Origin: Actinomycetota bacterium
GTDB taxonomy: Bacteria > Actinomycetota > Acidimicrobiia > Acidimicrobiales > VFJN01
Direction: 5' to 3'
NCBI GenBank assembly: GCA_049325515.1
Contig: JBMOLI010000004.1
Location: forward strand, 152,006 to 216,005
Length of the DNA: 64,000 bases
The position numbers and the translations under genes were made by a program. A model generated the notes under the pieces. It was not told the DNA's origin and made no database searches. It saw only the letters and a program-made list of their open reading frames with translations. Each line of letters opens with the position of its first letter. Positions within the stretch are counted from its first letter, which is position 1. Positions 8,865-29,575 of the stretch are shown piece after piece.

Positions 8865-9269
8865 TCAGGTGGCGGGGCGGAAGAGGGGAAGGCGCCGACC
8901 GTCGCTCAGCTCTTCGTCCCAGCTGACCTCGACGCGCATGCCGCAACGCACCGCGGCCGGCTCGCACCCGACGATGTTGGTTGCCATGCGGTACCCGTCG
9001 TAGAGGTCGACCAAGGCCAGGACGAACGGGGCCATGTCCGCCAGCATCGGGTTGCCGGCCTTGTGCATGATGTTGAACGTGTAGACCTCGCCACGGCCCG
9101 TCGACTCGACCCATCGGAGGCGGTCGCCCAGGCACGACGTGCACCGCTCGCGTGGGTACCAGACGGTCGCGTTGCAGTCGTCGCATCGCTGCACCATGAG
9201 CTGCTGCGAGCGGGTGGCGTCCCAGAAGGGCTCGCTCAGCGGGGTCGGAGAGGGCTCGAGGCGCGGCAT
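8865..9269 (-). CDS. DUF35 OB-fold / Zn-ribbon protein (thiolase partner)
   Basis: CDDCNATVWYPRERCTSC zinc ribbon followed by an OB-fold-like GEVYTFNIMH...FVLALVDL. ATG 9267-9269 lies 14 nt after the thiolase stop. Confidence 0.8.
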   Translation of the reverse strand: MPRLEPSPTPLSEPFWDATRSQQLMVQRCDDCNATVWYPRERCTSCLGDRLRWVESTGRGEVYTFNIMHKAGNPMLADMAPFVLALVDLYDGYRMATNIVGCEPAAVRCGMRVEVSWDEELSDGRRLPLFRPAT

Positions 9270-9283
9270 GAGGGCTCCTGGGG

Positions 9284-10456
9284 TCAGAGGGTCGATCCGG
9301 TTCCGAGGACGATGGTCGAGGTGCAGGACAGCACGCCGCCGCATCCGTTGGCCACGGCGATCTCCGCCCCGTCCACCTGGCGGTCCACCACGTCGCCGCG
9401 CAGCTGGCGGACGGCCTCCACGAGCACGAACATCCCGTACATGCCCGGGTGGGTGTAGGAGAGGCCGCCGCCGTTGGTGTTGGTGGGGAAGTCGCCGCCC
9501 GGGCCCAGGCGGCCTCCCTCGACGAAGGCGCCTCCCTCGCCCTTCGGGCAGAAGCCGAGGTCCTCAAGGGTCATCAGCGCTGTGATGGTGAAGCTGTCGT
9601 AGAGCTCCACCACGTCGACGTCGGTGGGGGTGATCCCGGCCATGGCGAAGGCCTGGGGGCCCGAGACGGCCGCGCCGGTGGTGGTGACGTCCGGCATCTG
9701 GCTGATCGACATGCCGTGGGTGTGGGCCGTGCCCGCCCCGAGGACGTAGATGGGCGGTCGGCGCAGGTCGCGTGCTCGCTCCGCGCTCGTCATGACGAGC
9801 GCGCCGGCTCCGTCGGTGACGAGGCAGCAGTCGAGCTTGTGGAGGGGTTCGGCGATGAGCTTGGAGGTCAGGACGTCTTCGACGGTGATGGGATCCTGGT
9901 GGTATGCGTTGGGGTTCTTCGTGGCCCAGCCGCGGAAGGCGACGGCGATCTCGGCGAGCTGCTCGCTGGTCGTGCCGTAGTCGTGCATGTGGCGACGGGC
10001 GGCCAGGCTGTAGCTCGACGCAGGGAGGCCGAAGCCGAAGGGCAGGTCCCACTCGAAGAAGGGCAGCCCCTTGCCCATCGACGGCCCACCACCGGCGAAG
10101 GGGTTGTCCCCGCTTCGTGGGGTTGCCGCGTACACGATCACGGCGACGTCGCACAGGCCAGCCGTGATCGCAGCCGCGGCGTGCTCGACGTGCACCTCGA
10201 AGCTCGACCCGCCGGTCATCGTCGTGTCGGTGTATCGGCCCCGCACTCCCATGCGTTCGGCGAGGTCGAGAGAGGCCATCATCCCGGTTGTGGAGATGAC
10301 GGCGTCGACGTCGCCGATCGTCAGGCCCGCGTCGTCGAGGGCGGCGCGCACCATGTCCACCTCGAGCTGGGCGGCGGTGCGATCGAGGGCGCCGGTGGGT
10401 GAGACCGCGTCGACGGCACCGACGATGGCGGTGCTGCCGCGAAGGGGATGGGTCAC
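9284..10456 (-). CDS. thiolase-like protein, SCP-x / lipid-transfer (Ltp) type
   Basis: N-terminal STAIVGAV...AAQLEVDMVRAALDDAGL and C-terminal NTNGGGLSYTHPGMYGMFVLVEAVRQLRG are typical of non-specific lipid-transfer thiolases. Confidence 0.85.
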   Translation of the reverse strand: MTHPLRGSTAIVGAVDAVSPTGALDRTAAQLEVDMVRAALDDAGLTIGDVDAVISTTGMMASLDLAERMGVRGRYTDTTMTGGSSFEVHVEHAAAAITAGLCDVAVIVYAATPRSGDNPFAGGGPSMGKGLPFFEWDLPFGFGLPASSYSLAARRHMHDYGTTSEQLAEIAVAFRGWATKNPNAYHQDPITVEDVLTSKLIAEPLHKLDCCLVTDGAGALVMTSAERARDLRRPPIYVLGAGTAHTHGMSISQMPDVTTTGAAVSGPQAFAMAGITPTDVDVVELYDSFTITALMTLEDLGFCPKGEGGAFVEGGRLGPGGDFPTNTNGGGLSYTHPGMYGMFVLVEAVRQLRGDVVDRQVDGAEIAVANGCGGVLSCTSTIVLGTGSTL

Positions 10457-10523
10457 AAGCTACTCCTGCGTTCCACGGACCGGACGTCGGGTAAACGACA
10501 ACGTACGTAGGCCGTATGGTGTC

Positions 10524-12023
10524 TTACAACCTGACGCTCGTCGCTGGCTGGCCAGCGGCTCGCGGAAGGGGGCCGGTCACCGCCTGAGCGAGCTCCGGCA
10601 GCCGCGGCAGCAGCGGGAGGAGTGAGCCCGTGAGCGTGGCTCCGGGTGCGGCCACGGGGAGCGCCTCCTGCAGCGCAAACAGGCTGCGCATCAGGAGGAC
10701 GACTTCCAGCGGGGGTCGCAGCCGGTGGCGCAGCAGCACGGTGACGGCCTCGCGCAGCCCGCCAAGCAGAGCTGTGGAACCCTCGCGGCCCAGCAGCGCC
10801 ATGGGGTCGAGACCGCCCGTGGCGGCCAAGTCGGCGATCAGTGCCTCGGTGTCGGTCGCCTCCGGCACGGCGCCAGCAGCACGCATCGCCACCACCTGGC
10901 CACGGTGGTCGCCGCTCAGTACGGCCGTGAGGAAGTCGTAGCCGGACGTGCGCAGGAGTGGAGTGAGCCGTCCGAGCACTGGGCAGCCGACGAGTGTGGT
11001 GACGTCCCCGTCGCCGCGCAGCTGGAACTGGGGGTCGGGGTCGGCGAGGAACACGCCGGCTCCGATCGCCGCCAGCACGATGACGGACGCGAGCGCGGCG
11101 CCTACGGCACCCGGGTCGTTGGGGGTCGGACTGCTCGTGACGGGTTCGCCGTCGACCGACTCGAACACGGCTGCGGCTGCTGCCACACCGCCGGGCACCG
11201 GTCGGGCAACCGAGATGCCCTCGACGGCGAGGGTCTCCACTGCGAGGCCCAGCTCGATCGCGTTGAGCGCGTGGTTGCGGAGGTCGAGCGAGTCGAGCAG
11301 CTGCCGGACCGTGAGCTCCACGAAGCCCTGCGGGTGCGCATCCCGGAGGCCGGGAACGATCTGGGCCGCGGTCCACGCCAGGGTGCCCGTGAAGCGGGCA
11401 TCGGAGAGGAGCGCCCGTCGGGCCGACGGCCGGCGGACGCGCAGCAAGGCATCCGAGCCGTCCGCGAGCAGGCACCGGTGCGTCTGGAGAACCGGCGTGG
11501 CGCCGAGCACCTGGGGGCTGACGGAGCGCACGAGCCCAGGCAGAGCTCGGTCGGCCACGCGCTCCACGGTGTCGACCCCCATCGGCGCCCACGGGATCGG
11601 TGCGAGCCGGAGGCGGTCCGTGACGCGCCCGGGGGCCAGGCTCCCGCTTCCCGTCACCAGCCGGGCCACCTCGGCTCCGGGAGCACCGAGCAGGGCGAGG
11701 TGGTCTCGAAGTACGTCCGCGACCGTGTCCTTCAGCGCGTCACCGTCGCCCGATGTGGGACGAGCGCGACGGGTGGGCCCGGGGAGCCAGCCGACGACTG
11801 CCCGTAGCTGTGCGGCTTGGAGGGCGGCCGCCTGGTGCACGGTCCGCGGCACCGAGCCGAGACCGGGGGCGGCGAGCTGCTCTGCTCGTCGGGCGATGCC
11901 CTGTCGCCGAGGGGCGAGCTGGCGGGCGAGCCCGCACGCGGTCAGCTCCAGGCCGGGCATCTCCTTGATCCATTGGCTGCCGACCACCCGCCGTGTCAGC
12001 TCGGCCAGCCCCCCTGCGTCCAC
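10524..12023 (-). CDS. ABC1/UbiB-family atypical kinase homologue with degenerate catalytic motifs (pseudokinase candidate)
   Basis: Collinear by eye with the two intact ABC1 proteins in this window, but the key motifs are replaced (see finding). Start chosen at GTG 12021-12023 behind GGAGGTGG. The tracked ORF extends to TTG 12206. Confidence 0.6.
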   Translation of the reverse strand: MDAGGLAELTRRVVGSQWIKEMPGLELTACGLARQLAPRRQGIARRAEQLAAPGLGSVPRTVHQAAALQAAQLRAVVGWLPGPTRRARPTSGDGDALKDTVADVLRDHLALLGAPGAEVARLVTGSGSLAPGRVTDRLRLAPIPWAPMGVDTVERVADRALPGLVRSVSPQVLGATPVLQTHRCLLADGSDALLRVRRPSARRALLSDARFTGTLAWTAAQIVPGLRDAHPQGFVELTVRQLLDSLDLRNHALNAIELGLAVETLAVEGISVARPVPGGVAAAAAVFESVDGEPVTSSPTPNDPGAVGAALASVIVLAAIGAGVFLADPDPQFQLRGDGDVTTLVGCPVLGRLTPLLRTSGYDFLTAVLSGDHRGQVVAMRAAGAVPEATDTEALIADLAATGGLDPMALLGREGSTALLGGLREAVTVLLRHRLRPPLEVVLLMRSLFALQEALPVAAPGATLTGSLLPLLPRLPELAQAVTGPLPRAAGQPATSVRL

Positions 12024-12346
12024 TCGACCACCTCCGATCGCCGGCGTTGATGCGCGACACCGACACGACCTTGTCACATCGCTCGCCCGCCGTCGAACAG
12101 CAGGGCAGCGGGCCGCCACACGCGGCACGCAGACCCGTGACCGCGACCGGACGAAGACGTTGAGCCGCTCGAACGGCCCCGGCATGCCCCTCGGGGCGAC
12201 CGCCAAGTCATGCCGCGAGATCGCCGGCCAGATTCGCCCCTGGTGGAGTCCTCGGCCTCGCGCTCGCTGGCGAGTCCTTCGGCCTGCGTCCTTGCCATGG
12301 ACGAATCTGACTCGCCGATTCCTCAGCGGACTCGCAGCTCAGGTCA

Positions 12347-13267
12347 CTAGCTGCCGGTCGGAAGGTCCATCGGGAACGCCGCAGGCTTGGTCGGGCTATC
12401 GGCGAACAGCTCGGGCGCCTGCTGGATCAGCTCGTCCACCGTCCAACGGTCGCCTCGGTCGATCTTGGCGATCGGCGTCCAGCTCCGCACCAGATCGACC
12501 CGCCCGCCGCCGACGACGAAGCACTGCCCGGTGACGTCGGACGCCGCGTCGGTGCACAGGTAGGCGACCCAGGGAGCGATGTTGTCGGGGTTCCAGATGT
12601 CGAAGGTGCCGTGATCGACGCTGAAGGCTCCGAACGTGCCCTCGGTCAGGCGGGTGCGGGCCCGGGGGCAGATGGCGTTGGCGGTGACGCCGTACTTCTC
12701 GAGTTCGCGGGCCAGCACGAGGGCCATGGTTGCGATGCCTGACTTCGCCGCTGCGTAGTTGAGCTGTCCGGCATTGCCGTAGAGGCCCGACTCCGATGCG
12801 GTTAGCACGATCCGGCCGCCGTGGGGCTCACCGGTTGCCTTGGTTTGCTCGCGCCAGTGGGCGGCAGCGTGGCGCACGGGCACGAAGTGGCCCTTCAGGT
12901 GCACGCGGATCACCGAGTCCCACTCGTCCTCGGTCATGTTGGCGCTGAATCGGTCGCGCAGGATCCCAGCGTTGCACACCAGGATGTCGAGCCGTCCGAA
13001 CGCATCGAGGGCTTGTTCGACCATGCGCTCGCCACCAGCCCAGTCGGCCACGTCGTCATAGCTGGCCACCGCCGCGCCACCTGCCGCGACGATCTCATCG
13101 ACGACGAGCTGGGCGGGTCTCTCGTCCGCACCCGATCCGTCCCAGCCGCCGCCCAGGTCGTTCACGACCACCGATGCCCCTTCGGCGGCGAGAAGCAGGG
13201 CGTGACCACGCCCGACCCCGCGGGCACCTCCAGTGACGATCGCGACCTTGCCGTCAAGGTGTCCCAT
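12347..13267 (-). CDS. SDR family oxidoreductase, MFE-2/Hsd4-type (3-hydroxyacyl-CoA dehydrogenase-like)
   Basis: GKVAIVTGGARGVGRG, NAGILRD and YAAAKSG motifs. Paralogue of 44313..45197. Confidence 0.9.
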   Translation of the reverse strand: MGHLDGKVAIVTGGARGVGRGHALLLAAEGASVVVNDLGGGWDGSGADERPAQLVVDEIVAAGGAAVASYDDVADWAGGERMVEQALDAFGRLDILVCNAGILRDRFSANMTEDEWDSVIRVHLKGHFVPVRHAAAHWREQTKATGEPHGGRIVLTASESGLYGNAGQLNYAAAKSGIATMALVLARELEKYGVTANAICPRARTRLTEGTFGAFSVDHGTFDIWNPDNIAPWVAYLCTDAASDVTGQCFVVGGGRVDLVRSWTPIAKIDRGDRWTVDELIQQAPELFADSPTKPAAFPMDLPTGS

Positions 13268-19140: not shown

Positions 19141-20547
19141 TCAGCGTTGTGGTGCGGTGAGGGAACCCACCAGGTGCAGGAGGATCTGCGGGTCGGCCAG
19201 GACGGCATAGTCCGGGGCCAGCGCTTTGCCGTAGCGCTCGAAGTACAGCAGCTGCTTGACCACCAGCACGAGCTCCTTCGGGAGGCGCACGCCGTAACGA
19301 GAGGCCACCCGCAGCACCTGCCCGAGCACCTCGGCATAGTCGATGTCGGCCAGGCCCCTGGCCAGGAGTGGCGTCACGAGGGCCTCGAGATCCCGTGACG
19401 CGGCCGAGACGTCGATGGGCCGCTGCACGATACCCAGCTCGAAGACGGCGCGGACGGTTCGCTCGAAGTCGCGTTCGATGAGAAGCGCAGGGAGGGTCTC
19501 GCGCAGCACGTCGCGCGCCCGCTCATCGAGGTGACCCACGATGCCGAAGTCGAGCATCGCCACCTCACCCGACGGCGTGACGAAGAGGTTGCCTGCGTGC
19601 ACGTCGCCGTGGAAGTGACCATGTACCAAGGCGGCCTCCACCCAGGCTCGGATGGCGCGGCGCAGCACATCCTCGAGGTCGTGGCCCTGCGCTCGCAGGT
19701 GGTCGACGGCGTCGATTGTGATCCCGTCCACGAACGTCATCACGAGGACCCGGCGCGAGACCATCCCCGCGACTGGTGCGGGCACCAACACCCGACTGTT
19801 GTCCCCGAAGGCGCGCAGGTTGGTCTCGAAGCGCTCCATGGCAACGGCCTCGTTTCGGAAGTCGAGCTCGGCTCGGAGCGTCTCAGCGAAGTCGTCGACG
19901 ATGGCGCGCGGGTTGACGATCGTGCCGAGTGGACCCATGCGTTCGAGGGCGCTGGCGAGCAGCGCCAGCAGGCGGAGGTCGCGCTCGATGACCCGCCGCA
20001 ACCGGGGTCGGCGGATCTTGACCGCCACCACGGTCCCGTCGTGGAGGACCGCACGGTGGACCTGCGCGATCGATGCAGGGGCGATCGGCTCGTTGTCGAA
20101 GCTCCGGAACAGGTGCCGTACCTTGTGGCCCAGATCGAGTTCGATGATCCGCCGTACGTCGGCCAGCGGCTCCGCTGGGACGTCGTCGAGCAGCTTGCGA
20201 AGCTCATCGGAGAGCGTCGCCGGGAAGAGCCCTGGGCTCGAGGCGATGAGCTGCCCCAGCTTGATGAAGGTGGGGCCAAGATCAGCGAGCGATCGCCGGA
20301 TGGCCACGGCCATTGCACGCGGCGTGCGCCGACGGGGTTGCAGGACGATCACAGGCCCGCGCCGGACGACGATCATCACCCCATGGCGGGCGAAGGTGAC
20401 GGCGATCTCGCCGAGGCGGGCTGCGTCGAGGGGATGAAGCCGACGGAGGTCGATGGACGCGGACGCTGCGCCTGCGCCTGCGGCTCGGCTGCTGCGCCGG
20501 CCACGATCAGGGCTCGAGAAGCGGGATGAGGGTCGCTTCGAGGACAA
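19141..20547 (-). CDS. ABC1/UbiB-family atypical protein kinase
   Basis: LGPTFIKLGQLIASSPGLFP, VAVKIRRP, ELDFRNEA, HGDVHAGN and LDFG. The only in-frame start upstream of the conserved N-terminus is TTG 20545-20547, which overlaps the TetR 3' end by 41 nt. Confidence 0.85.
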   Translation of the reverse strand: MSSKRPSSRFSSPDRGRRSSRAAGAGAASASIDLRRLHPLDAARLGEIAVTFARHGVMIVVRRGPVIVLQPRRRTPRAMAVAIRRSLADLGPTFIKLGQLIASSPGLFPATLSDELRKLLDDVPAEPLADVRRIIELDLGHKVRHLFRSFDNEPIAPASIAQVHRAVLHDGTVVAVKIRRPRLRRVIERDLRLLALLASALERMGPLGTIVNPRAIVDDFAETLRAELDFRNEAVAMERFETNLRAFGDNSRVLVPAPVAGMVSRRVLVMTFVDGITIDAVDHLRAQGHDLEDVLRRAIRAWVEAALVHGHFHGDVHAGNLFVTPSGEVAMLDFGIVGHLDERARDVLRETLPALLIERDFERTVRAVFELGIVQRPIDVSAASRDLEALVTPLLARGLADIDYAEVLGQVLRVASRYGVRLPKELVLVVKQLLYFERYGKALAPDYAVLADPQILLHLVGSLTAPQR

Positions 20548-21756: not shown

Positions 21757-23043
21757 ATGAGTGACGCATCGGACGGTGACGCCCGGATCCGTGACGGAGC
21801 CCAGCGATGGTTCGAGGAGAACTGGGACCCCGACCTCGACCTGGCCTCCTGGTGGGAGCGCTTGGCCGAATCGGGCTACGCCGTGCCCACCTGGTCGGCC
21901 GACTGGTTCGGAAGGGGGTTGACATCGCGCCAGGCCGGTGCCGTCCACGAGGCCCGCAAGAAGGTCGGCGCCTTCGGGGCCCCCAGCGGCATCGGGATCA
22001 TGATGGCCGGTCCCACCATTGTGACCCACGGCACCGATGAGCAGCGCAAGCGCTTACTTCCCAACATGGTGAACGGCAAGGAGGTGTGGTGCCAGCTGTT
22101 CAGTGAGCCGGGCTCAGGGTCTGACCTCGCCAGCCTCGCCACTCGCGCCGTGCGCGACGGCGACGAGTGGATCGTGAACGGCCAGAAGGTGTGGACGTCA
22201 GGTGCGCAGTTCTCCAAGTGGGGGATCCTGATCGCCCGTACGAACCCCGATCAGCCCAAGCACCGGGGCATCACCTACTTCGTCATCGACATGGAGCAGC
22301 CCGGCATCGAGGTGCGCCCGTTGAAGGAGATGACCGGGGGCACGACCTTCAACGAGGTCTTCTTCACCGACGCCAGGGTGCCGCACGAAAACGTGATCGG
22401 TGCGGTCGACGATGGGTGGGGCGTGGCCGTCACCACCCTCGCACACGAGCGAAACTCGCTCGGCGCCGGGGGGATGGGCGGGTTCGGGGGTGGCGAGATC
22501 ATCGGCAAGCCACCCCTCGACGCTCGGGTCGGCGACCTCGTCGGACGCTCGGGGGGCGGCGAGATGGCCGGCATGGCCGCCGCGCTCGGCGGCGGGGGAG
22601 GCTCGCTGATCAAGGCCCTGCCCCAGATGTTCGGGCGGGCCGAGGACCCGGTCGTGCGCCAAGACGTGGCCCGGATCTACTCGATGCTCGAGATCGCCCG
22701 CTACACGGGCCTCCGGGCGCAGGCCGCCGCCGCTCGCGGTGACGGCCCTGGCCCTGAGGTGTCCACGGGAAAGCTCGTGGCCTCCCACCTCGTCAGGGCG
22801 CTCCGTGATGTCGGGCTCGGAATCCAAGGGGCGCAGGGCATGCTCGTCGGGGCTGACGCGCCGATGGGGGGGATGCTTCAGGCCCTCGCCCTCTTCAGCC
22901 CAGCGGTGTCGATCGCCGGTGGGAGCGACCAGGTGCAGCGGAACATCATCGGGGAACGGGTGCTCGGCCTCCCAGCCGAGCCTCGCCTCGACAAGGACGT
23001 CGCCTACAAGGACACCTTGGTCGGCACCCAGGGCCGAGGCTGA
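21757..23043 (+). CDS. acyl-CoA dehydrogenase family protein (FadE-like), paralogue 2
   Basis: WCQLFSEPGSGSDLASL...GQKVWTSGAQ...GGSDQVQRNIIGERVLGLPAEP. ATG 21757 is preceded by GGAGGAAG. Confidence 0.9.
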   Translation: MSDASDGDARIRDGAQRWFEENWDPDLDLASWWERLAESGYAVPTWSADWFGRGLTSRQAGAVHEARKKVGAFGAPSGIGIMMAGPTIVTHGTDEQRKRLLPNMVNGKEVWCQLFSEPGSGSDLASLATRAVRDGDEWIVNGQKVWTSGAQFSKWGILIARTNPDQPKHRGITYFVIDMEQPGIEVRPLKEMTGGTTFNEVFFTDARVPHENVIGAVDDGWGVAVTTLAHERNSLGAGGMGGFGGGEIIGKPPLDARVGDLVGRSGGGEMAGMAAALGGGGGSLIKALPQMFGRAEDPVVRQDVARIYSMLEIARYTGLRAQAAAARGDGPGPEVSTGKLVASHLVRALRDVGLGIQGAQGMLVGADAPMGGMLQALALFSPAVSIAGGSDQVQRNIIGERVLGLPAEPRLDKDVAYKDTLVGTQGRG

Positions 23044-23191
23044 ATCGCGTTCGCGCCCGCCTGGGAGAGCCGAGGTTGCAGCTGGGATTACAGCGGTGCA
23101 ACTCTGTCTCATCGTCTATTCCATCGGTTGCAGCACTCGGGGTCCCCCGAACCGGCCTGCCACCGAACGTCAACCGGAGGGCACCAACAAC

Positions 23192-24568
23192 ATGGGACGA
23201 CCGCGCGGTCTGTCGATCGAGGCCATCAACGGGTTCGGCGCAGCGGAGATCGGTCGAGCTGCTCTAACCGCCGTCGTGCTGGGCCGCCACGGGGTGCGGG
23301 GCCTGCGCGGTGGCCGAGCCGGGCGAGGTCCTCGCGCGGCCCAGGAGCTGAAGGCGGCCTTCGCTGAGCTCGGGCCGACCTACGTCAAGCTGGCCCAGCT
23401 CATCGCGTCGAGTCCCGGGCTGTTCCCCGAGGTCCTGTCCGATGAGTTCCGCAGCCTTCTCGACGAAGTGCCGCCGATCGACGCGGCGACGGTGCGGGAG
23501 GTGATCGAGGCCGATCTCGGCGACATCCCCGAGCAGGTGTTCGCCGAGTTCGACTACACACCGCTGGCCTCCGCCTCCATCGCGCAGGTCCATGTGGCAC
23601 GCCTGCACAATGGTGAGGAGGTGGTGGTCAAGATCCAGCGGCCCGGGATCCGCGCTCGGCTGGAGGGGGACCTACGGATCCTGATGCAGCTCGCGAAGAC
23701 CCTCGAGCGACTGTCCAAGAAGGGTCGGATGGCCAATCCCATCGCGGTCGTCGAGGACTTCGCCGCCACCCTGAGAGAGGAGCTGAACTTCGTCAACGAG
23801 GCCCGCTCGATGGAGATGTTCGCCGCCAACCTCGCCGCATTCGGCACGAACGATCGGGTGCGCGTGCCCACCGTGCGCTGGGCCTTCACGACGCCTCGCG
23901 TGCTCACGATGGAGCGCATCCACGGATACAAGATCGATGACCTGGCCTCCCTAGGAGCGACCGGGTGGGACCTCGGCGGCGCACTGAAGCGGGGCGTGCG
24001 CGCATGGATGGAAGCCGCCCTCGAGCACGGCTTCTTCCACGGCGACGTGCACGCCGGTAACCTGATGCTCGACCAGGACGGCCATGTCGTGTTTCTCGAC
24101 TTCGGCATCGTCGGACGGCTTGACGACAAGACGCGAGAGATCGTCAGGCACGGCCTGCCAGCGCTCCTCGTCGACGGCGACTTCGTGGAGGTGGCCAAGG
24201 CCATCTACGAGATGGGTGCCGTGCTCAGCCCGATGGACCTCGAGCAGTCATCGAAGGACATCGCAGAGATCGTCGAGCCCATCCTCGGCAAGCCGCTCTC
24301 GGAGATCTCCTACGGCCAGGTGCTCGTCGACATCGTCCGCATCGGTACCCGCTACGAGGTGCGCCTGCCGCGCGAGCTGGTACTGGTCGCGAAGCAGATG
24401 CTCTACTTCGAGCGCTACGCCAAGCTCATGGCGCCTGATTGGAACATCCTCAACGACCCCGACCTGATCGGGTTCCTGTTCGAGGGCCTCGAGGACCACA
24501 CCGTCGGCGAGGAGTCGGCCGAGGCGGCGGCGTTCGCGGCCAAGATGGCCGACGCCATCGAGGGCTGA
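23192..24568 (+). CDS. ABC1/UbiB-family atypical protein kinase
   Basis: LGPTYVKLAQLIASSPGLFP, VVVKIQRPG, ELNFVNEA, HGDVHAGN and LDFG. ATG 23192 sits downstream of GGAGGG. Close paralogue of 19141..20547. Confidence 0.9.
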   Translation: MGRPRGLSIEAINGFGAAEIGRAALTAVVLGRHGVRGLRGGRAGRGPRAAQELKAAFAELGPTYVKLAQLIASSPGLFPEVLSDEFRSLLDEVPPIDAATVREVIEADLGDIPEQVFAEFDYTPLASASIAQVHVARLHNGEEVVVKIQRPGIRARLEGDLRILMQLAKTLERLSKKGRMANPIAVVEDFAATLREELNFVNEARSMEMFAANLAAFGTNDRVRVPTVRWAFTTPRVLTMERIHGYKIDDLASLGATGWDLGGALKRGVRAWMEAALEHGFFHGDVHAGNLMLDQDGHVVFLDFGIVGRLDDKTREIVRHGLPALLVDGDFVEVAKAIYEMGAVLSPMDLEQSSKDIAEIVEPILGKPLSEISYGQVLVDIVRIGTRYEVRLPRELVLVAKQMLYFERYAKLMAPDWNILNDPDLIGFLFEGLEDHTVGEESAEAAAFAAKMADAIEG

Positions 24569-27450: not shown

Positions 27451-28569
27451 TCAGTAGGACGGTGCGGCCCCGGTCCTGACAGGCGCTGGCTCGTTGATCA
27501 CAGGGTCGGGGGTCTCGAGGTCGTGGAAGCCGGACAGTATGTCGTTGCGGCGCGGGTGCCCGTCGAGCTGTGCCTCGATCACGGAGAGGAACAGCTTGCG
27601 GTTGCCCTGCCGCTTGCCTCCGAGGCCGAACATCGCTCGCATCGAGTAGTCCCAGCAGGCGTCGATCACGGTGGTTCCGGGGAGATGTCGGCCATCCTCG
27701 CCGATGAAGGTGCGGGCCCGCATCTCGGTGAGCGTGGTGCGGAGGTACTCCACGTGTGGAGCCTCGTCAGCACGGATGTAGCCCACCAGCCGCGCCGCCT
27801 CAGCGGCGTTTGAGCAGTAGCGCTCGTCGCCGACCACCTGCTCTGCCCAGCTGAAGGTGTTGGCGGCGAGGAGCTCGATGAGCAGCAGGCCTGTCATGCG
27901 AGTTATGGCCGACTCGAGCTGGAAGTCGATCGCTGGCACCACGGGGTCACCCATCCCCAGAGACTTGACCATGGAGGTCATGACCTCGCCGCCGTCGCCG
28001 TCAGCGCTCATCGTCTTCATGGTCAGCGCCAGCGGATCACCCACGTCGGGGTCGTCGAGCGCCAGGTCGCGCACGAGATACCACATCTGCTGGTGCCCGC
28101 CCTCGTCCTCGAAGCCTGACTCGTCGCGCGCGTGGGCCTCGTAAAGACCGCGGTTCAAGTGGTCCATCGCGGTGCCCTCGATCGGCTCGACGAACCGCGA
28201 CTGGAGATCCCCCAGCTCGACGAAGCGGATGATCGACCCGAACCCTTCGATCGTGCCGATGTGGGTCAGCACGTGAGCGAGCGGCGTGCGCACCCCCTCC
28301 GACAGCAGGTACTTCGTCTGCTCCACGTTCGGGTAGAACTCCGCGAAGAAGTCGGGCGGGCAGTCGATGAGCGGCATGCCTCCCGAGTCCTTCTCCAACT
28401 GCACCTGCCACGCCCGGATGGCGGGCCAGCGGTGCAGCGTCCGCGGCGACACGTAGGTGCCGGTGGCATCGAACCCACCGTGCATGCGCCGGCCACTGAG
28501 CACGAGCGGCTCCTCGTAGACGTGGCTGGCGAGAAGCTCTTCGGGGTCGTACGAGAGCTGGTCCGTCAT
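27451..28569 (-). CDS. hypothetical protein (372 aa) with a duplicated E...ExxH di-iron-carboxylate-like signature
   Basis: ATG 28567-28569 is preceded by GAAGGAGA. E118-x37-E156GGH159 and E232-x36-E269APH272 (hand-counted). I recognise no named family. Confidence 0.7.
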   Translation of the reverse strand: MTDQLSYDPEELLASHVYEEPLVLSGRRMHGGFDATGTYVSPRTLHRWPAIRAWQVQLEKDSGGMPLIDCPPDFFAEFYPNVEQTKYLLSEGVRTPLAHVLTHIGTIEGFGSIIRFVELGDLQSRFVEPIEGTAMDHLNRGLYEAHARDESGFEDEGGHQQMWYLVRDLALDDPDVGDPLALTMKTMSADGDGGEVMTSMVKSLGMGDPVVPAIDFQLESAITRMTGLLLIELLAANTFSWAEQVVGDERYCSNAAEAARLVGYIRADEAPHVEYLRTTLTEMRARTFIGEDGRHLPGTTVIDACWDYSMRAMFGLGGKRQGNRKLFLSVIEAQLDGHPRRNDILSGFHDLETPDPVINEPAPVRTGAAPSY

Positions 28570-28729
28570 CTGTTGGTCTCCTTCACGTCCGTCGGGCTCG
28601 TGCGGCCACGATGTCGTGGCAACTGCATTGGCGGTTATGACACTGTATCGTCCTTGTAGTATCGCGTCGGCGCGCCCGCGTCGCGGGAGGCCGTCATCGG
28701 GACGACCGGCGTCAGAGGAGGGAACCCCC

Positions 28730-29575
28730 ATGGAAGTGCTCGACGGCAAGGTGGCGGTGGTGACGGGCGCCGCAAGTGGGATCGGAGCGGCTCTCGCGGG
28801 TCGGTTCGCCTCGGAGGGGATGCGGGTGGTTCTGGCAGATGTGGAGGTCGACCCACTCCACGCGGCCGCCGAGAAGCTGGAGGCCGACGGTGCCGACGTG
28901 CTGGCCGTGCGCACTGATGTGTCCCGCGGGGACGACGTCGACCGCCTCGCCGCCGCGGCCGCTGAGGCGTTCGGGCCCGTTCACGTGCTCTGCAACAACG
29001 CTGGCGTGGGCGCTGGCGGCCTGCTCTCCGACCTCACCACCGAGGACTGGGAATGGGTGCTGGGGGTGAACCTCTGGGGCGTGATCCACGGCCTGCGGGC
29101 CTTCCTGCCCGGCATGCTGGCCCACGGTGAGCCCGGGCACATCGTCAACACAGCCTCGCTCGCCGGCCTGGTGTCGGCGCCGATGATGGGCCCCTACGGC
29201 GCCAGCAAGTTCGCGGTGGTGGGCATCAGCGAGGCGCTCTACCACGAGCTGCAGCTCACCGGGTCCCGGATCGGCGCCTCGGTGCTCTGCCCCGGGTGGG
29301 TCAACACGCAGATCTACGCCTCCGAGCGGAACCGGCCGGCCGGGTTGGGCAGCGCTGATGCGGGACAAGGTGTGCACGGCGATCCCCGAGCCGAGATGCT
29401 CCGCGCGATCCTGGCCTCCGGAATGGCCCCCGACGCGGTGGCCGACCTCGTGCTCGGCGCGATCCGGGACAGTCGCTTCTACGTGCTCACCCATCCGGAG
29501 ATGACGCCCGCGGTCGAGGCCCGCATGCGCGCCATCCTCGACGGCCAAAACCCCAACCTGTCTCTGACCCTCTGA
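28730..29575 (+). CDS. SDR family oxidoreductase
   Basis: GKVAVVTGAASGIGAA, NNAGV and YGASKFAV. ATG 28730 is preceded by GGAGGG. Confidence 0.9.
   Translation: MEVLDGKVAVVTGAASGIGAALAGRFASEGMRVVLADVEVDPLHAAAEKLEADGADVLAVRTDVSRGDDVDRLAAAAAEAFGPVHVLCNNAGVGAGGLLSDLTTEDWEWVLGVNLWGVIHGLRAFLPGMLAHGEPGHIVNTASLAGLVSAPMMGPYGASKFAVVGISEALYHELQLTGSRIGASVLCPGWVNTQIYASERNRPAGLGSADAGQGVHGDPRAEMLRAILASGMAPDAVADLVLGAIRDSRFYVLTHPEMTPAVEARMRAILDGQNPNLSLTL

What the first reader, a model, noticed from the sequence alone, without database searches (positions are those of the whole stretch)
10524..12023. ABC1/UbiB-like pseudokinase embedded in an SDR-thiolase-DUF35 operon
Seen: this ORF is collinear with the two intact ABC1 kinases in the same window, but every diagnostic motif is replaced.
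- Nucleotide/A-rich loop: LGPTFIKLGQ becomes LGAPGAEVARL.
- VAVKIRRP becomes ALLRVRRP (Lys to Arg).
- ELDFRNEA becomes SLDLRNHA.
- HGDVHAGN becomes LADPDPQF.
- LDFG becomes LVGC.
The ORF stays open for about 500 codons and keeps operon spacing: it lies 67 nt upstream of the thiolase start. Established: UbiB/ABC1/COQ8 proteins are atypical kinase-fold ATPases linked to lipid and quinone handling. Inference: this is a catalytically dead paralogue retained as a lipid-binding or scaffolding subunit next to a thiolase/DUF35 pair. Pseudokinases of this family are, to my knowledge, not described in bacteria.
Basis: partly seen in the sequence, partly recalled or inferred. Interest (0 to 1): 0.65.

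Follow-up and report, generated by a model that had tools for sequence, protein, structure and literature searches.

The report
Catalytically dead UbiB-fold protein clade
This gene encodes an intact, selectively maintained copy of the UbiB/ABC1 lipid-handling ATPase fold that has lost the residues needed to bind and split ATP; it belongs to a small, undescribed Acidimicrobiia clade whose normal partner gene, a lipid-binding LmeA-like protein, was recently deleted in this genome.

Summary
Window 10524-12023 (minus strand, 499 aa, GGAGG 7 nt before the GTG) is a real UbiB/ABC1-fold protein: Pfam ABC1 28 bits (cut-off 22.9), AlphaFold pLDDT 82, and Foldseek best hits to MSMEG_1954, Rv3197 and COQ8A. 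It is collinear with the two intact ABC1 genes in the window.

The catalytic signatures are replaced:
- KxGQ Lys/Gln to Glu/Arg
- beta3 Lys to Arg
- alphaC Glu to His
- Mg-binding Asn to Phe
- DFG Asp to Gly

It is not a private pseudogene. About 20 cluster representatives (50% identity) out of 1.84 billion proteins share the core substitutions. They form one clade (100/100 support, long stem) nested among canonical ABC1s, and I found them only in Acidimicrobiia. dN/dS is 0.19-0.34, against 0.07-0.25 for neighbouring genes.

The operon reading is only partly right. The SDR neighbour is not conserved, and the thiolase/DUF35 link holds only in the close relatives. The recurrent partner is an LmeA-like phospholipid-binding gene immediately downstream (11 loci), often with a canonical ABC1 alongside. 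In this window that gene was lost in two deletions (about 28 and 675 nt), leaving a 19-residue tail and the "67-nt spacing".

My reading: a non-catalytic UbiB-fold adaptor or ligand-binding subunit. No biochemistry or expression data were available.

The parts
10524..12023 (-). Pseudo-UbiB (degenerate ABC1-fold) gene, 499 aa, GTG start
   Evidence: Pfam ABC1 28 bits. Profile hits to Rv3197, MSMEG_1954 and COQ8A. AF2 pLDDT 82.2, pTM 0.85. Foldseek top hits are UbiB-family structures. 22 full-length homologues. dN/dS 0.19-0.34.
12031..12035 (-). Shine-Dalgarno GGAGG, 7 nt upstream of the GTG start
   Evidence: Read directly from the sequence. Homologues begin at the same position.
10524..10583 (-). 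C-terminal 19-residue tail (AVTGPLPRAAGQPATSVRL) plus stop: the remnant of the deleted LmeA-like gene
   Evidence: Three-way DNA alignment with L044 (91% aa identity) and L015 (86%). The window lacks about 28 nt that carry the ancestral TGA stop and spacer, and about 675 nt of the LmeA-like ORF. Its TAA stop aligns with the LmeA-like stop.
10457..10523 (-). 67-nt spacer before the thiolase: the native LmeA-like/thiolase intergenic region
   Evidence: Aligns with the spacer between the LmeA-like gene and the thiolase in L015.
9284..10456 (-). SCP-x-type thiolase-like gene (Thiolase_C_1)
   Evidence: Pfam PF22691, 210 bits. 96% aa identity to the L015 orthologue, dN/dS 0.07.
8865..9344 (-). DUF35 / ChsH2-like zinc-ribbon plus OB-fold gene (true start probably near 9269)
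   Evidence: Pfam PF12172 and PF01796. Orthologues are 134 aa.
12347..13267 (-). SDR gene. This neighbour is specific to the window and is not part of the conserved unit
   Evidence: Pfam adh_short. L015 and L044 have a Metal_hydrol gene upstream instead; homology to L015 ends at window 12096.
19141..20547 (-). Canonical ABC1/UbiB paralogue with all motifs intact. It groups with the canonical ABC1 that sits directly upstream of the pseudo-UbiB in L013
   Evidence: Pfam ABC1 225 bits; motif table; tree.
22739..24568 (+). Second canonical ABC1/UbiB paralogue
   Evidence: Pfam ABC1 239 bits; motif alignment.

Best explanation
The gene encodes a non-catalytic ('pseudo') member of the UbiB/ABC1 atypical-kinase/ATPase family. 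It keeps the whole fold, including the N-terminal KxGQ helical domain, but cannot bind or hydrolyse Mg-ATP in the canonical way.

It arose once, from a canonical ABC1 paralogue within Acidimicrobiia, probably by tandem duplication. Since then it has been maintained as a nucleotide-independent adaptor or hydrophobic-ligand-binding subunit.

Its usual module is [canonical ABC1] - pseudo-UbiB - LmeA-like phospholipid-binding protein, with stop and start often overlapping, sometimes followed by [canonical ABC1 - di-iron protein]. In the window's genus-level lineage this module sits in a TetR-controlled island for oxidising hydrophobic substrates (P450-ferredoxin-ALDH, SCPx-thiolase/DUF35, MMPL).

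In this genome the LmeA-like partner was recently deleted. The pseudo-UbiB now abuts the thiolase and carries a 19-residue remnant tail.

Shown: fold, motif loss, single origin, purifying selection, synteny and the deletion. Inferred: absence of ATPase activity, lipid or ligand binding, and physical partnership with LmeA-like or canonical ABC1 proteins.
For: Fold and homology:
- Pfam ABC1 above the cut-off.
- Family profile against PDB: Rv3197 1.5e-13, MSMEG_1954 3e-11, COQ8A 1e-4.
- AF2 pLDDT 82, pTM 0.85.
- The 12 best Foldseek hits are all UbiB-family structures, TM up to 0.68.

Motif loss is clade-wide and discrete:
- In 27 clade members against 12 canonical proteins, KxGQ K->E (93%), Q->R (89%), beta3 K->R (85%) and DFG D->G (93%). 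The Mg-binding Asn (invariant in the canonical set) is replaced in most members: His in 59%, Phe in the window. Each of these is 100% canonical in the control set.
- In COQ8A, the DFG mutant D507N lacks ATP binding and activity, and KxGQ mutants lose ATPase activity and function (bioRxiv 10.1101/149823).

Single origin: the clade is monophyletic at 100/100 with a stem of 1.35 substitutions per site, nested among canonical ABC1s.

Selection:
- dN/dS is 0.205 (vs L044), 0.187 (vs L015) and 0.30-0.34 (vs L011 and L045). Neighbouring genes give 0.07-0.25.
- All homologues are full length without stops.
- Former active-site columns are more conserved within the clade (0.66) than the rest of the protein (0.52).

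Partners:
- An LmeA-like gene lies directly downstream in 11 loci.
- A canonical ABC1 is directly adjacent in L013, L042, L048, L054 and L040.

Deletion of the partner in this window.
Against:
- The catalytic-loop Asp is retained in 96% of the clade, as are the Gln and His of the A-rich loop, so a non-canonical activity is not excluded.
- dN/dS is higher than for the thiolase, DUF35 and TetR neighbours, and comparable to the P450 and MMPL genes.
- The window's sub-clade has lost further residues: His of FHAD, the alphaC Glu, and the His that replaces Asn elsewhere in the clade.
- The window copy has lost its usual partner, which could mean its function is already compromised in this genome.
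- Contexts are heterogeneous. A sub-clade (G045, G039, G049) pairs with an inositol-monophosphatase gene instead of LmeA-like.
- Distribution is patchy (1 of 29 other species of the genus), so the gene is dispensable.
Confidence: 0.6

Rival explanations
1. In this particular genome the gene is a relic on its way to becoming a pseudogene. The module was broken by deletion of the LmeA-like partner, and the ORF is still open only because too little time has passed.
For: - The partner gene was deleted and the original stop codon lost.
- This sub-clade is the most degenerate in motifs.
- Nucleotide identity to L015 is 85%, against 91% for the flanking DNA.
- The gene is absent from 28 of 29 other species of the genus.
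Against: - dN/dS against the closest relative L044, which keeps the LmeA-like gene, is 0.205. That is no higher than L044 vs L015 (0.184), so no relaxation is detectable on the window branch.
- The ORF is intact over 499 codons, with a good Shine-Dalgarno sequence.
- The deletion kept the reading frame and ends at a stop codon.
Confidence: 0.12
2. It is still an enzyme or nucleotide sensor with a rewired active site. The clade-invariant Arg (beta3), retained catalytic-loop Asp, His (at the Asn position) and Cys (at the DFG+1 position) would bind a nucleotide or another phospho-ligand non-canonically, possibly with a different metal.
For: - The replacements are not random but clade-conserved: E118, R121, R195, G346; His at the Asn position in 59%; 'GC' at DFG in most members.
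- D328 is kept in 96% of the clade.
- Active-site columns are more conserved than the rest of the protein.
- Some pseudokinases are known to bind nucleotide without the canonical residues (review PMC4718504, listed; I did not read it in detail).
Against: - Three independent Mg-ATP contacts are gone together: beta3 Lys, Asn and the DFG Asp.
- The KxGQ Gln proposed to hold the hydrolytic water is also gone.
- The window's own sub-clade has in addition lost the His (to Phe) and the alphaC Glu (to His), so any rewired site is not kept here.
Confidence: 0.15
3. It is a dedicated subunit of the thiolase/DUF35 enzyme, delivering or holding lipid substrate for that pair.
For: Pseudo-UbiB, LmeA-like, thiolase and DUF35 genes are collinear and on the same strand in the window clade and its 62-65% identical relatives (L011, L015, L045, L046).
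Against: - In every one of those loci except the window, the LmeA-like gene lies between the pseudo-UbiB and the thiolase.
- Deeper clade members (L013, L042, L048, L051-54, L037-39) have no thiolase or DUF35 next to them.
Confidence: 0.1

Closest known systems
Mycobacterial UbiB-family ATPases Rv3197 (MABP-1) and MSMEG_1954 (PDB 5yjz, 7cy2, 7cyr)
   Same: Best sequence-profile hits (E=1.5e-13 and 3e-11) and best structural matches (Foldseek E=3e-10, TM 0.68). Same soluble actinobacterial ABC1 fold with no transmembrane segment.
   Different: Those proteins are active ATPases that bind ADP/AMPPNP and macrolides (PMC6208485, PMC8696161). They keep VAVKIQYP, HGDAHPGN and IDFG. The window protein has Arg, Phe and Gly at those catalytic positions.
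COQ8A/ADCK3, yeast Coq8 and E. coli UbiB (the archetypal UbiB family, Pfam PF03109)
   Same: Same fold, including the KxGQ helical domain that closes over the active site. Same theme of pairing with lipid-binding helpers and lipid or quinone metabolism (established knowledge: UbiB with UbiJ/UbiK).
   Different: The invariant KxGQ Lys and Gln, the A-rich loop, the beta3 Lys, the Asn and the DFG Asp are lost. COQ8A D507N (the DFG Asp) lacks ATP binding and activity, and KxGQ mutants lose ATPase and in vivo function (10.1101/149823). There is no link to ubiquinone genes here.
Bacterial Hanks-type pseudokinase families (ActPs1-3, GLW, CP1, DYD, DLHK)
   Same: The same evolutionary pattern: a conserved clade, common in actinobacteria, derived from active kinases. 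ActPs2 also replaces the beta3 Lys with a conserved Arg (PMC12599244).
   Different: Those are eukaryote-like Ser/Thr kinase domains. The review does not mention UbiB or ABC1 at all (0 occurrences). This clade belongs to a different branch of the kinase-like superfamily, with the KxGQ domain.
Live/dead UbiB gene pairs noted earlier in this scan in Acidobacteriota (AI notes e1-2136764, e1-2136765, e1-4907531)
   Same: A canonical ABC1 encoded next to a conserved, catalytically degenerate ABC1-fold paralogue inside lipid-metabolism modules. This matches L013, L042, L048 and L054 here.
   Different: Different phylum. No sequence-level similarity was found by the word search, so this is probably an independent loss. 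Those modules carry other third partners, not an LmeA-like protein. The notes are unpublished and unchecked.

Membership tests
UbiB/ABC1 family (Pfam PF03109) | Significant match to the ABC1 HMM above the gathering score | tested here: met
   28.0 bits against a cut-off of 22.9, E=1.5e-6, profile positions 32-238 of 244. The match is weak; canonical paralogues score 205-242 bits.
UbiB/ABC1 family (Pfam PF03109) | Kinase-like bilobal fold with the N-terminal KxGQ helical domain | tested here: met
   AF2 model pLDDT 82.2, pTM 0.85. The top 12 Foldseek PDB hits are all UbiB-family structures: 7cyr, 5yjz, 4ped, 5i35 and others.
UbiB/ABC1 family (Pfam PF03109) | Invariant KxGQ motif (Lys and Gln) | tested here: not met
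   KLGQ -> EVAR. Glu in 93% and Arg in 89% of the clade, against Lys and Gln in 100% of canonical controls.
UbiB/ABC1 family (Pfam PF03109) | Ala-rich nucleotide-binding loop (AAASIAQVH) | tested here: not met
   GATPVLQTH: the Ala/Ser run is replaced by Thr-Pro, and only Gln and His are retained.
UbiB/ABC1 family (Pfam PF03109) | beta3 (VAIK-type) Lys and its alphaC Glu partner | tested here: not met
   Lys->Arg (R195; 85% of the clade). Glu->His in the window sub-clade; the Glu is kept in deeper members.
UbiB/ABC1 family (Pfam PF03109) | Catalytic loop HxDxxxxN: Asp base and Mg-binding Asn | tested here: inconclusive
   Asp retained (D328, 96% of the clade). Asn replaced by Phe here, and by His in 59% of the clade. 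The His of the loop is replaced by Leu here.
UbiB/ABC1 family (Pfam PF03109) | DFG Asp (Mg-ATP binding) | tested here: not met
   DFG -> GCP. Gly in 93% of the clade, Asp in 100% of canonical controls.
UbiB/ABC1 family (Pfam PF03109) | ATPase or autophosphorylation activity | not testable with these tools
   Needs purified protein.
Pseudoenzyme (pseudokinase-type) clade | Derived from, and nested within, a catalytically active family | tested here: met
   ML tree: 31 degenerate sequences form one clade (100/100) inside canonical ABC1s, sister to the P0043-P0055 group.
Pseudoenzyme (pseudokinase-type) clade | Maintained by purifying selection as an intact ORF across species | tested here: met
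   dN/dS 0.19-0.34 in the near clade. Full-length ORFs in all 22 homologues and all genome hits. Deep comparisons are saturated at synonymous sites.
Pseudoenzyme (pseudokinase-type) clade | Demonstrated lack of catalysis or nucleotide binding | not testable with these tools
   Inferred from motif loss and from COQ8A mutant data.
   No SDR in that position in L015, L044, L045 or L011. An LmeA-like gene separates the pseudo-UbiB from the thiolase in all of them. There is no thiolase or DUF35 in L013, L042, L048, L051-54 or L037-39.

The most novel reading that the evidence does not exclude
Acidimicrobiia carry a previously unrecognised three-part lipid-handling machine: a live UbiB-type ATPase, an obligate dead UbiB-fold paralogue and a translationally coupled LmeA-like (TULIP-type) phospholipid-binding protein, sometimes with an AurF-like di-iron oxygenase. 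In this machine the pseudo-UbiB would gate or present membrane-embedded hydrophobic substrates to soluble enzymes. Together with the independently evolved live/dead UbiB pairs noted in Acidobacteriota, this would make regulation by a pseudo-subunit a general feature of UbiB biology. It would also give a tractable bacterial system for the unsolved question of what UbiB/COQ8 proteins do.
Probability: 0.3. Interest if true: 0.8.

Novelty: new variant of a known kind. Interest (0 to 1): 0.55.

Why it matters
What UbiB/COQ8/ADCK proteins do biochemically is a long-standing open question: ATPase, lipid extractor or kinase. These proteins matter for coenzyme Q deficiency in humans and for plastoglobule biology in plants.

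This clade is natural, conserved and apparently catalytically dead. It keeps the fold, keeps a constrained former active site, and is encoded next to a phospholipid-binding protein and live paralogues. That argues the fold has a nucleotide-independent function such as ligand binding, scaffolding or allosteric pairing.

It also offers simple bacterial proteins on which to test that idea. In the literature I could search, bacterial pseudokinase surveys cover only Hanks-type kinases; this would extend the concept to the UbiB branch.

The window copy adds a natural experiment: the pseudo-UbiB persists after its partner gene was deleted.

Tried and rejected
- **Chance ORF in 70% G+C DNA:** rejected. 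Codon-position G+C fits coding sequence, 22 full-length homologues exist, and dN/dS is below 1.
- **The longer TTG start at 12206:** rejected. All homologues begin at the 12023 GTG, and a GGAGG sits 7 nt upstream.
- **Two further weak ABC1 hits in the genome (C13:326884, C19:20291) as more pseudo-UbiBs:** rejected. They are PknB-like Ser/Thr kinases with PASTA-type tails.
- **An LmeA-like gene elsewhere in the window:** not found. The only Pfam LmeA hit in the genome is on contig C18, away from any ABC1 gene.
- **'1 TGA inside' reported for the G021 paralogue:** the alignment simply runs past the terminal stop. The 560-aa ORF is intact.
- **Promoter and terminator scan of 10300-12500:** nothing found, so uninformative.
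- **Sequence look-up of earlier scan findings:** no look-alike pseudo-UbiB elsewhere.
- **Hydrophobic stretch at residues 309-327 (KD 2.46) as a transmembrane helix:** rejected. It is the buried alphaE helix of the C-lobe in a confident part of the model.
- **A salt-bridge 'charge swap' explanation for K->E and Q->R:** not pursued, because model coordinates cannot be inspected with these tools.
Full report
**1. What is at the coordinates.**
The window is about 70% G+C and lies on contig C4 of a 3.9-Mb genome that is 99% complete. Relatives are labelled Acidimicrobiales or Acidimicrobiia MAGs.

On the minus strand an ORF runs from 12206 (first TTG) to the stop at 10524. All 22 homologues are 477-487 aa when complete, and they begin where the GTG at 12023 lies. 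A GGAGG sits at 12035-12031, 7 nt upstream of that GTG. Codon-position G+C (0.80/0.57/0.84) fits a coding frame in this genome.

**2.
Pfam ABC1 (PF03109) matches at 28.0 bits (cut-off 22.9), covering profile positions 32-238 of 244. The seven canonical ABC1 genes of the same genome score 205-242 bits. Two further weak hits are PknB-type kinases, not ABC1 proteins.

BLASTP against the two intact ABC1 genes of the window gives collinear alignments of about 380 residues at 25-26% identity.

A profile of the family finds the mycobacterial UbiB-family ATPases Rv3197 (E=1.5e-13) and MSMEG_1954 (3e-11), then COQ8A. An AlphaFold2 model built on the family alignment is confident (pLDDT 82.2, pTM 0.85). 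Its 12 best PDB matches are all UbiB-family structures (MSMEG_1954, Rv3197, COQ8A; TM up to 0.68), followed by RIO and PknB kinases.

| Motif | Canonical | Window protein |
|---|---|---|
| KxGQ | LGPTFIKLGQ | LGAPGAEVAR (K->E, Q->R) |
| A-rich loop | AAASIAQVH | GATPVLQTH |
| beta3 | VAVKIRRP | ALLRVRRP (K->R) |
| ExD / alphaC | ELDFRNEA | SLDLRNHA (E->H) |
| Catalytic loop | FHGDVHAGN | FLADPDPQF (Asp kept, Asn->Phe) |
| DFG | LDFG | LVGC (by HMM alignment Asp->Gly) |

The first motif is KxGQ, not the A-rich loop. The catalytic-loop Asp is retained.

**3. It is a clade, not a private degenerate copy.**
An exhaustive profile search of 1.84 billion cluster representatives, followed by a motif read-out, shows a sharp boundary. 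About 20 representatives (roughly 250-780 bits) share AE[VIL]AR, R[VI]RRP and [VA]G[C]. The next-best proteins (from P0043 at 268 bits downward) all carry the complete canonical set.

In 27 clade members against 12 canonical controls, the clade-specific switches are K->E (93%), Q->R (89%), beta3 K->R (85%) and DFG D->G (93%). The Asn is replaced by His in 59%. The catalytic-loop Asp is kept in 96%.

Columns of the former active-site motifs are more conserved within the clade (mean top-residue frequency 0.66) than the rest of the domain (0.52).

A maximum-likelihood tree puts all 31 degenerate sequences on one side of a branch with 100/100 support and a length of 1.35 substitutions per site. 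The clade is nested among canonical ABC1s. That indicates a single loss followed by long diversification. The window's sub-clade (window, P0002, P0003, P0005) has lost further residues: His of FHAD, the alphaC Glu, and the His that replaces Asn in the rest of the clade.

**4. Selection.**
I used Nei-Gojobori estimates on codon alignments.

| Comparison | dN/dS |
|---|---|
| Window vs L044 (91% aa identity) | 0.205 |
| Window vs L015 (86%) | 0.187 |
| Window vs L011 / L045 (64-65%) | 0.34 / 0.30 |
| L044 vs L015 | 0.184 |
| Thiolase (same genome pairs) | 0.07-0.08 |
| DUF35 | 0.10-0.22 |
| TetR | 0.09-0.15 |
| ALDH | 0.13-0.16 |
| P450 | 0.18 |
| MMPL | 0.25 |

The gene is under purifying selection. 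That selection is weaker than on the core enzymes and within the range of its neighbours. No extra relaxation is detectable on the window branch. Comparisons at 42-44% identity are saturated at synonymous sites and say nothing.

**5. Distribution.**
- Among 60 relatives, clear clade members (E of 1e-43 or better) occur in G021 (same genus; 1 of 29 other species), G056, G045, G039 and G049.
- In 400 genomes drawn evenly from the class, only a handful carry one.
- In 400 drawn from the phylum, the only clade member beyond the window's own genome is G144, in the same order. The one hit in another class (G563) is canonical.
- All nine loci found in the species-genome collection are Acidimicrobiales or Acidimicrobiia MAGs, some labelled only 'Actinomycetes bacterium'.

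The clade is therefore rare, patchy and, as far as sampled, restricted to Acidimicrobiia.

**6. Genomic context: the operon reading has to be revised.**
The window is collinear with L015 at 85-91% nucleotide identity, with two exceptions.

- Upstream, homology stops at 12096. L015 and L044 carry a Metal_hydrol gene there, not the SDR. The SDR is 323 nt away and is not a conserved neighbour.
- Downstream, every close relative has an LmeA-like gene (Pfam PF11209, 'LmeA-like phospholipid-binding') between the pseudo-UbiB and the thiolase. This holds for L044, L015, L045, L046 and L011.

A three-way alignment shows two deletions in the window. One of about 28 nt removed the ancestral TGA stop and the spacer. 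One of about 675 nt removed almost the whole LmeA-like ORF. The reading frame continues through about 16 LmeA-like codons and ends at the position of the LmeA-like stop. This explains the 19-residue tail AVTGPLPRAAGQPATSVRL that no homologue has. The 67 nt before the thiolase are the native LmeA-like/thiolase spacer. The genome's only other Pfam LmeA hit is on another contig.

**7. The conserved partners.**
I built an HMM from three LmeA-like neighbours. It finds an LmeA-like ORF directly downstream of the pseudo-UbiB, often overlapping its end, in 11 loci spanning 40-91% identity: L044, L015, L045/46, L011, L013, L042, L048, L051, L052, L053 and L054.

A canonical ABC1 is directly adjacent in several loci:
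- L013: on both sides, with the order ABC1 - pseudo - LmeA-like - ABC1 - 372-aa protein.
- L054: the same order downstream.
- L042: directly upstream.
- L048: two copies upstream.
- L040: the G021 paralogue.

A canonical ABC1 lies 7-11 kb away in the window, L011 and L014. The window's canonical ABC1 at 19141-20547 groups with the one upstream of the pseudo gene in L013.

A separate sub-clade (G045, G039, G049) lacks the LmeA-like gene. It sits next to an inositol-monophosphatase-family gene, and in G039 the two domains lie in one 681-aa ORF.

The thiolase/DUF35-TetR-ALDH-ferredoxin-P450 block accompanies only the window's near clade, at 62% identity or more.

**8. Mechanism.**
*Shown:* UbiB fold; loss of five canonical nucleotide or catalysis residues; single origin; purifying selection; recurrent LmeA-like and canonical-ABC1 neighbours; partner deletion in this window.

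*From the literature:* COQ8A D507N (the DFG Asp) lacks ATP binding and activity. The KxGQ Gln holds a candidate hydrolytic water, and KxGQ mutants lose ATPase activity and in vivo function (bioRxiv 10.1101/149823). Rv3197 and MSMEG_1954 are ATPases that also bind macrolides (PMC6208485, PMC8696161). LmeA is a mycobacterial envelope protein tied to lipomannan maintenance (PMC7643837), and Pfam names its family phospholipid-binding.

*Inferred:* the protein cannot bind or hydrolyse Mg-ATP canonically. It acts as a nucleotide-independent ligand-binding or scaffolding subunit, ancestrally with an LmeA-like lipid-binding protein and a live UbiB paralogue. This is analogous to UbiB working with the lipid-binding UbiJ/UbiK (established knowledge, not tested here). 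In the window's lineage this would serve an island for oxidising hydrophobic substrates: P450, ALDH, SCPx-thiolase/DUF35, MMPL, acyl-CoA synthetase, ACAD and BVMO.

I put about 0.85 on 'selected, catalytically dead UbiB-fold protein' and about 0.6 on the whole statement including the adaptor role.

*Rivals:* early-stage decay in this genome (0.12); a rewired active site that still binds a ligand or nucleotide (0.15); a dedicated thiolase/DUF35 subunit (0.10).

**9. Comparison with what is known.**
The protein meets the HMM and fold criteria of PF03109 and fails the catalytic-motif criteria. I file it as a pseudoenzyme branch of the UbiB family rather than as a UbiB ATPase.

Full-text searches found no description of dead UbiB-family proteins in bacteria. 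A 2025 review of bacterial pseudokinase families treats Hanks-type kinases only and never mentions UbiB or ABC1.

Earlier AI notes of this scan report live/dead UbiB pairs in Acidobacteriota. They share no detectable sequence words with this clade. They are unpublished leads. They agree with the pairing seen here in L013, L042, L048 and L054, but they are not independent evidence.

**10. Limits.**
- dN/dS is a pairwise NG86 estimate in a 70% G+C genome, used only relative to neighbouring genes.
- Synteny counts rest on six-frame HMM hits in MAG contigs.
- Protein-protein contacts could not be modelled.

**Verdict.** This is a new variant (a dead clade) of a known family, with a window-specific twist: the partner gene has been deleted.

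Noticed in passing
Own genome G000:C4:104828-107278 (locus L004 1087-3537, +), outside the window: An 817-aa fusion of a canonical ABC1 domain (PF03109, 222 bits) with a C-terminal AurF-like di-iron oxygenase domain (PF11583, 56 bits). AurF-type or Pfam-less di-iron-like proteins also flank ABC1 and pseudo-ABC1 genes in L045/L046, L013 and L054. This recalls UbiB/COQ8 working with the di-iron hydroxylase COQ7.
   Followed up: partly
window 27451-28914 (-): This Pfam-less protein is a strong homologue (phmmer 6e-210) of the 372-aa protein that follows the canonical ABC1 in the L013 and L054 pseudo-UbiB operons. An earlier first-reader note (e1-4965459) sees a duplicated ExxH di-iron signature in it.
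   Followed up: partly
L038 6759-8804 (-) (G039:C14), also L037 and L039: In one Acidimicrobiales genome a single 681-aa ORF joins a pseudo-UbiB domain to an inositol-monophosphatase domain. In two other genomes the two are separate neighbouring genes, with a DUF4436 gene upstream in two of the three. This is a second, distinct context for the clade.
   Followed up: partly
G000 contigs C4, C13, C18 (loci L001-L007): A 3.9-Mb genome carries seven canonical ABC1 paralogues. Two pairs sit in mirror orientation on C4 (103234 minus / 105242 plus, and 171458 minus / 175461 plus). That is an unusually large complement for a bacterium.
   Followed up: no
L015 15848-17452 and L014 9169-10657: Transposase genes (rve, IS110-type) lie next to the pseudo-UbiB islands in two relatives. 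This fits the patchy distribution and possible lateral movement of the island.
   Followed up: no
window 10524-12023 (-): The protein has only 2 Lys in 499 residues (0.4%), against 9% Arg. Its alphaE helix (residues 309-327) is unusually hydrophobic (KD 2.46) compared with canonical paralogues.
   Followed up: partly
L011 2651-6089 (G021): The same-genus relative has the thiolase/DUF35 pair duplicated in tandem downstream of the pseudo-UbiB and LmeA-like genes.
   Followed up: no
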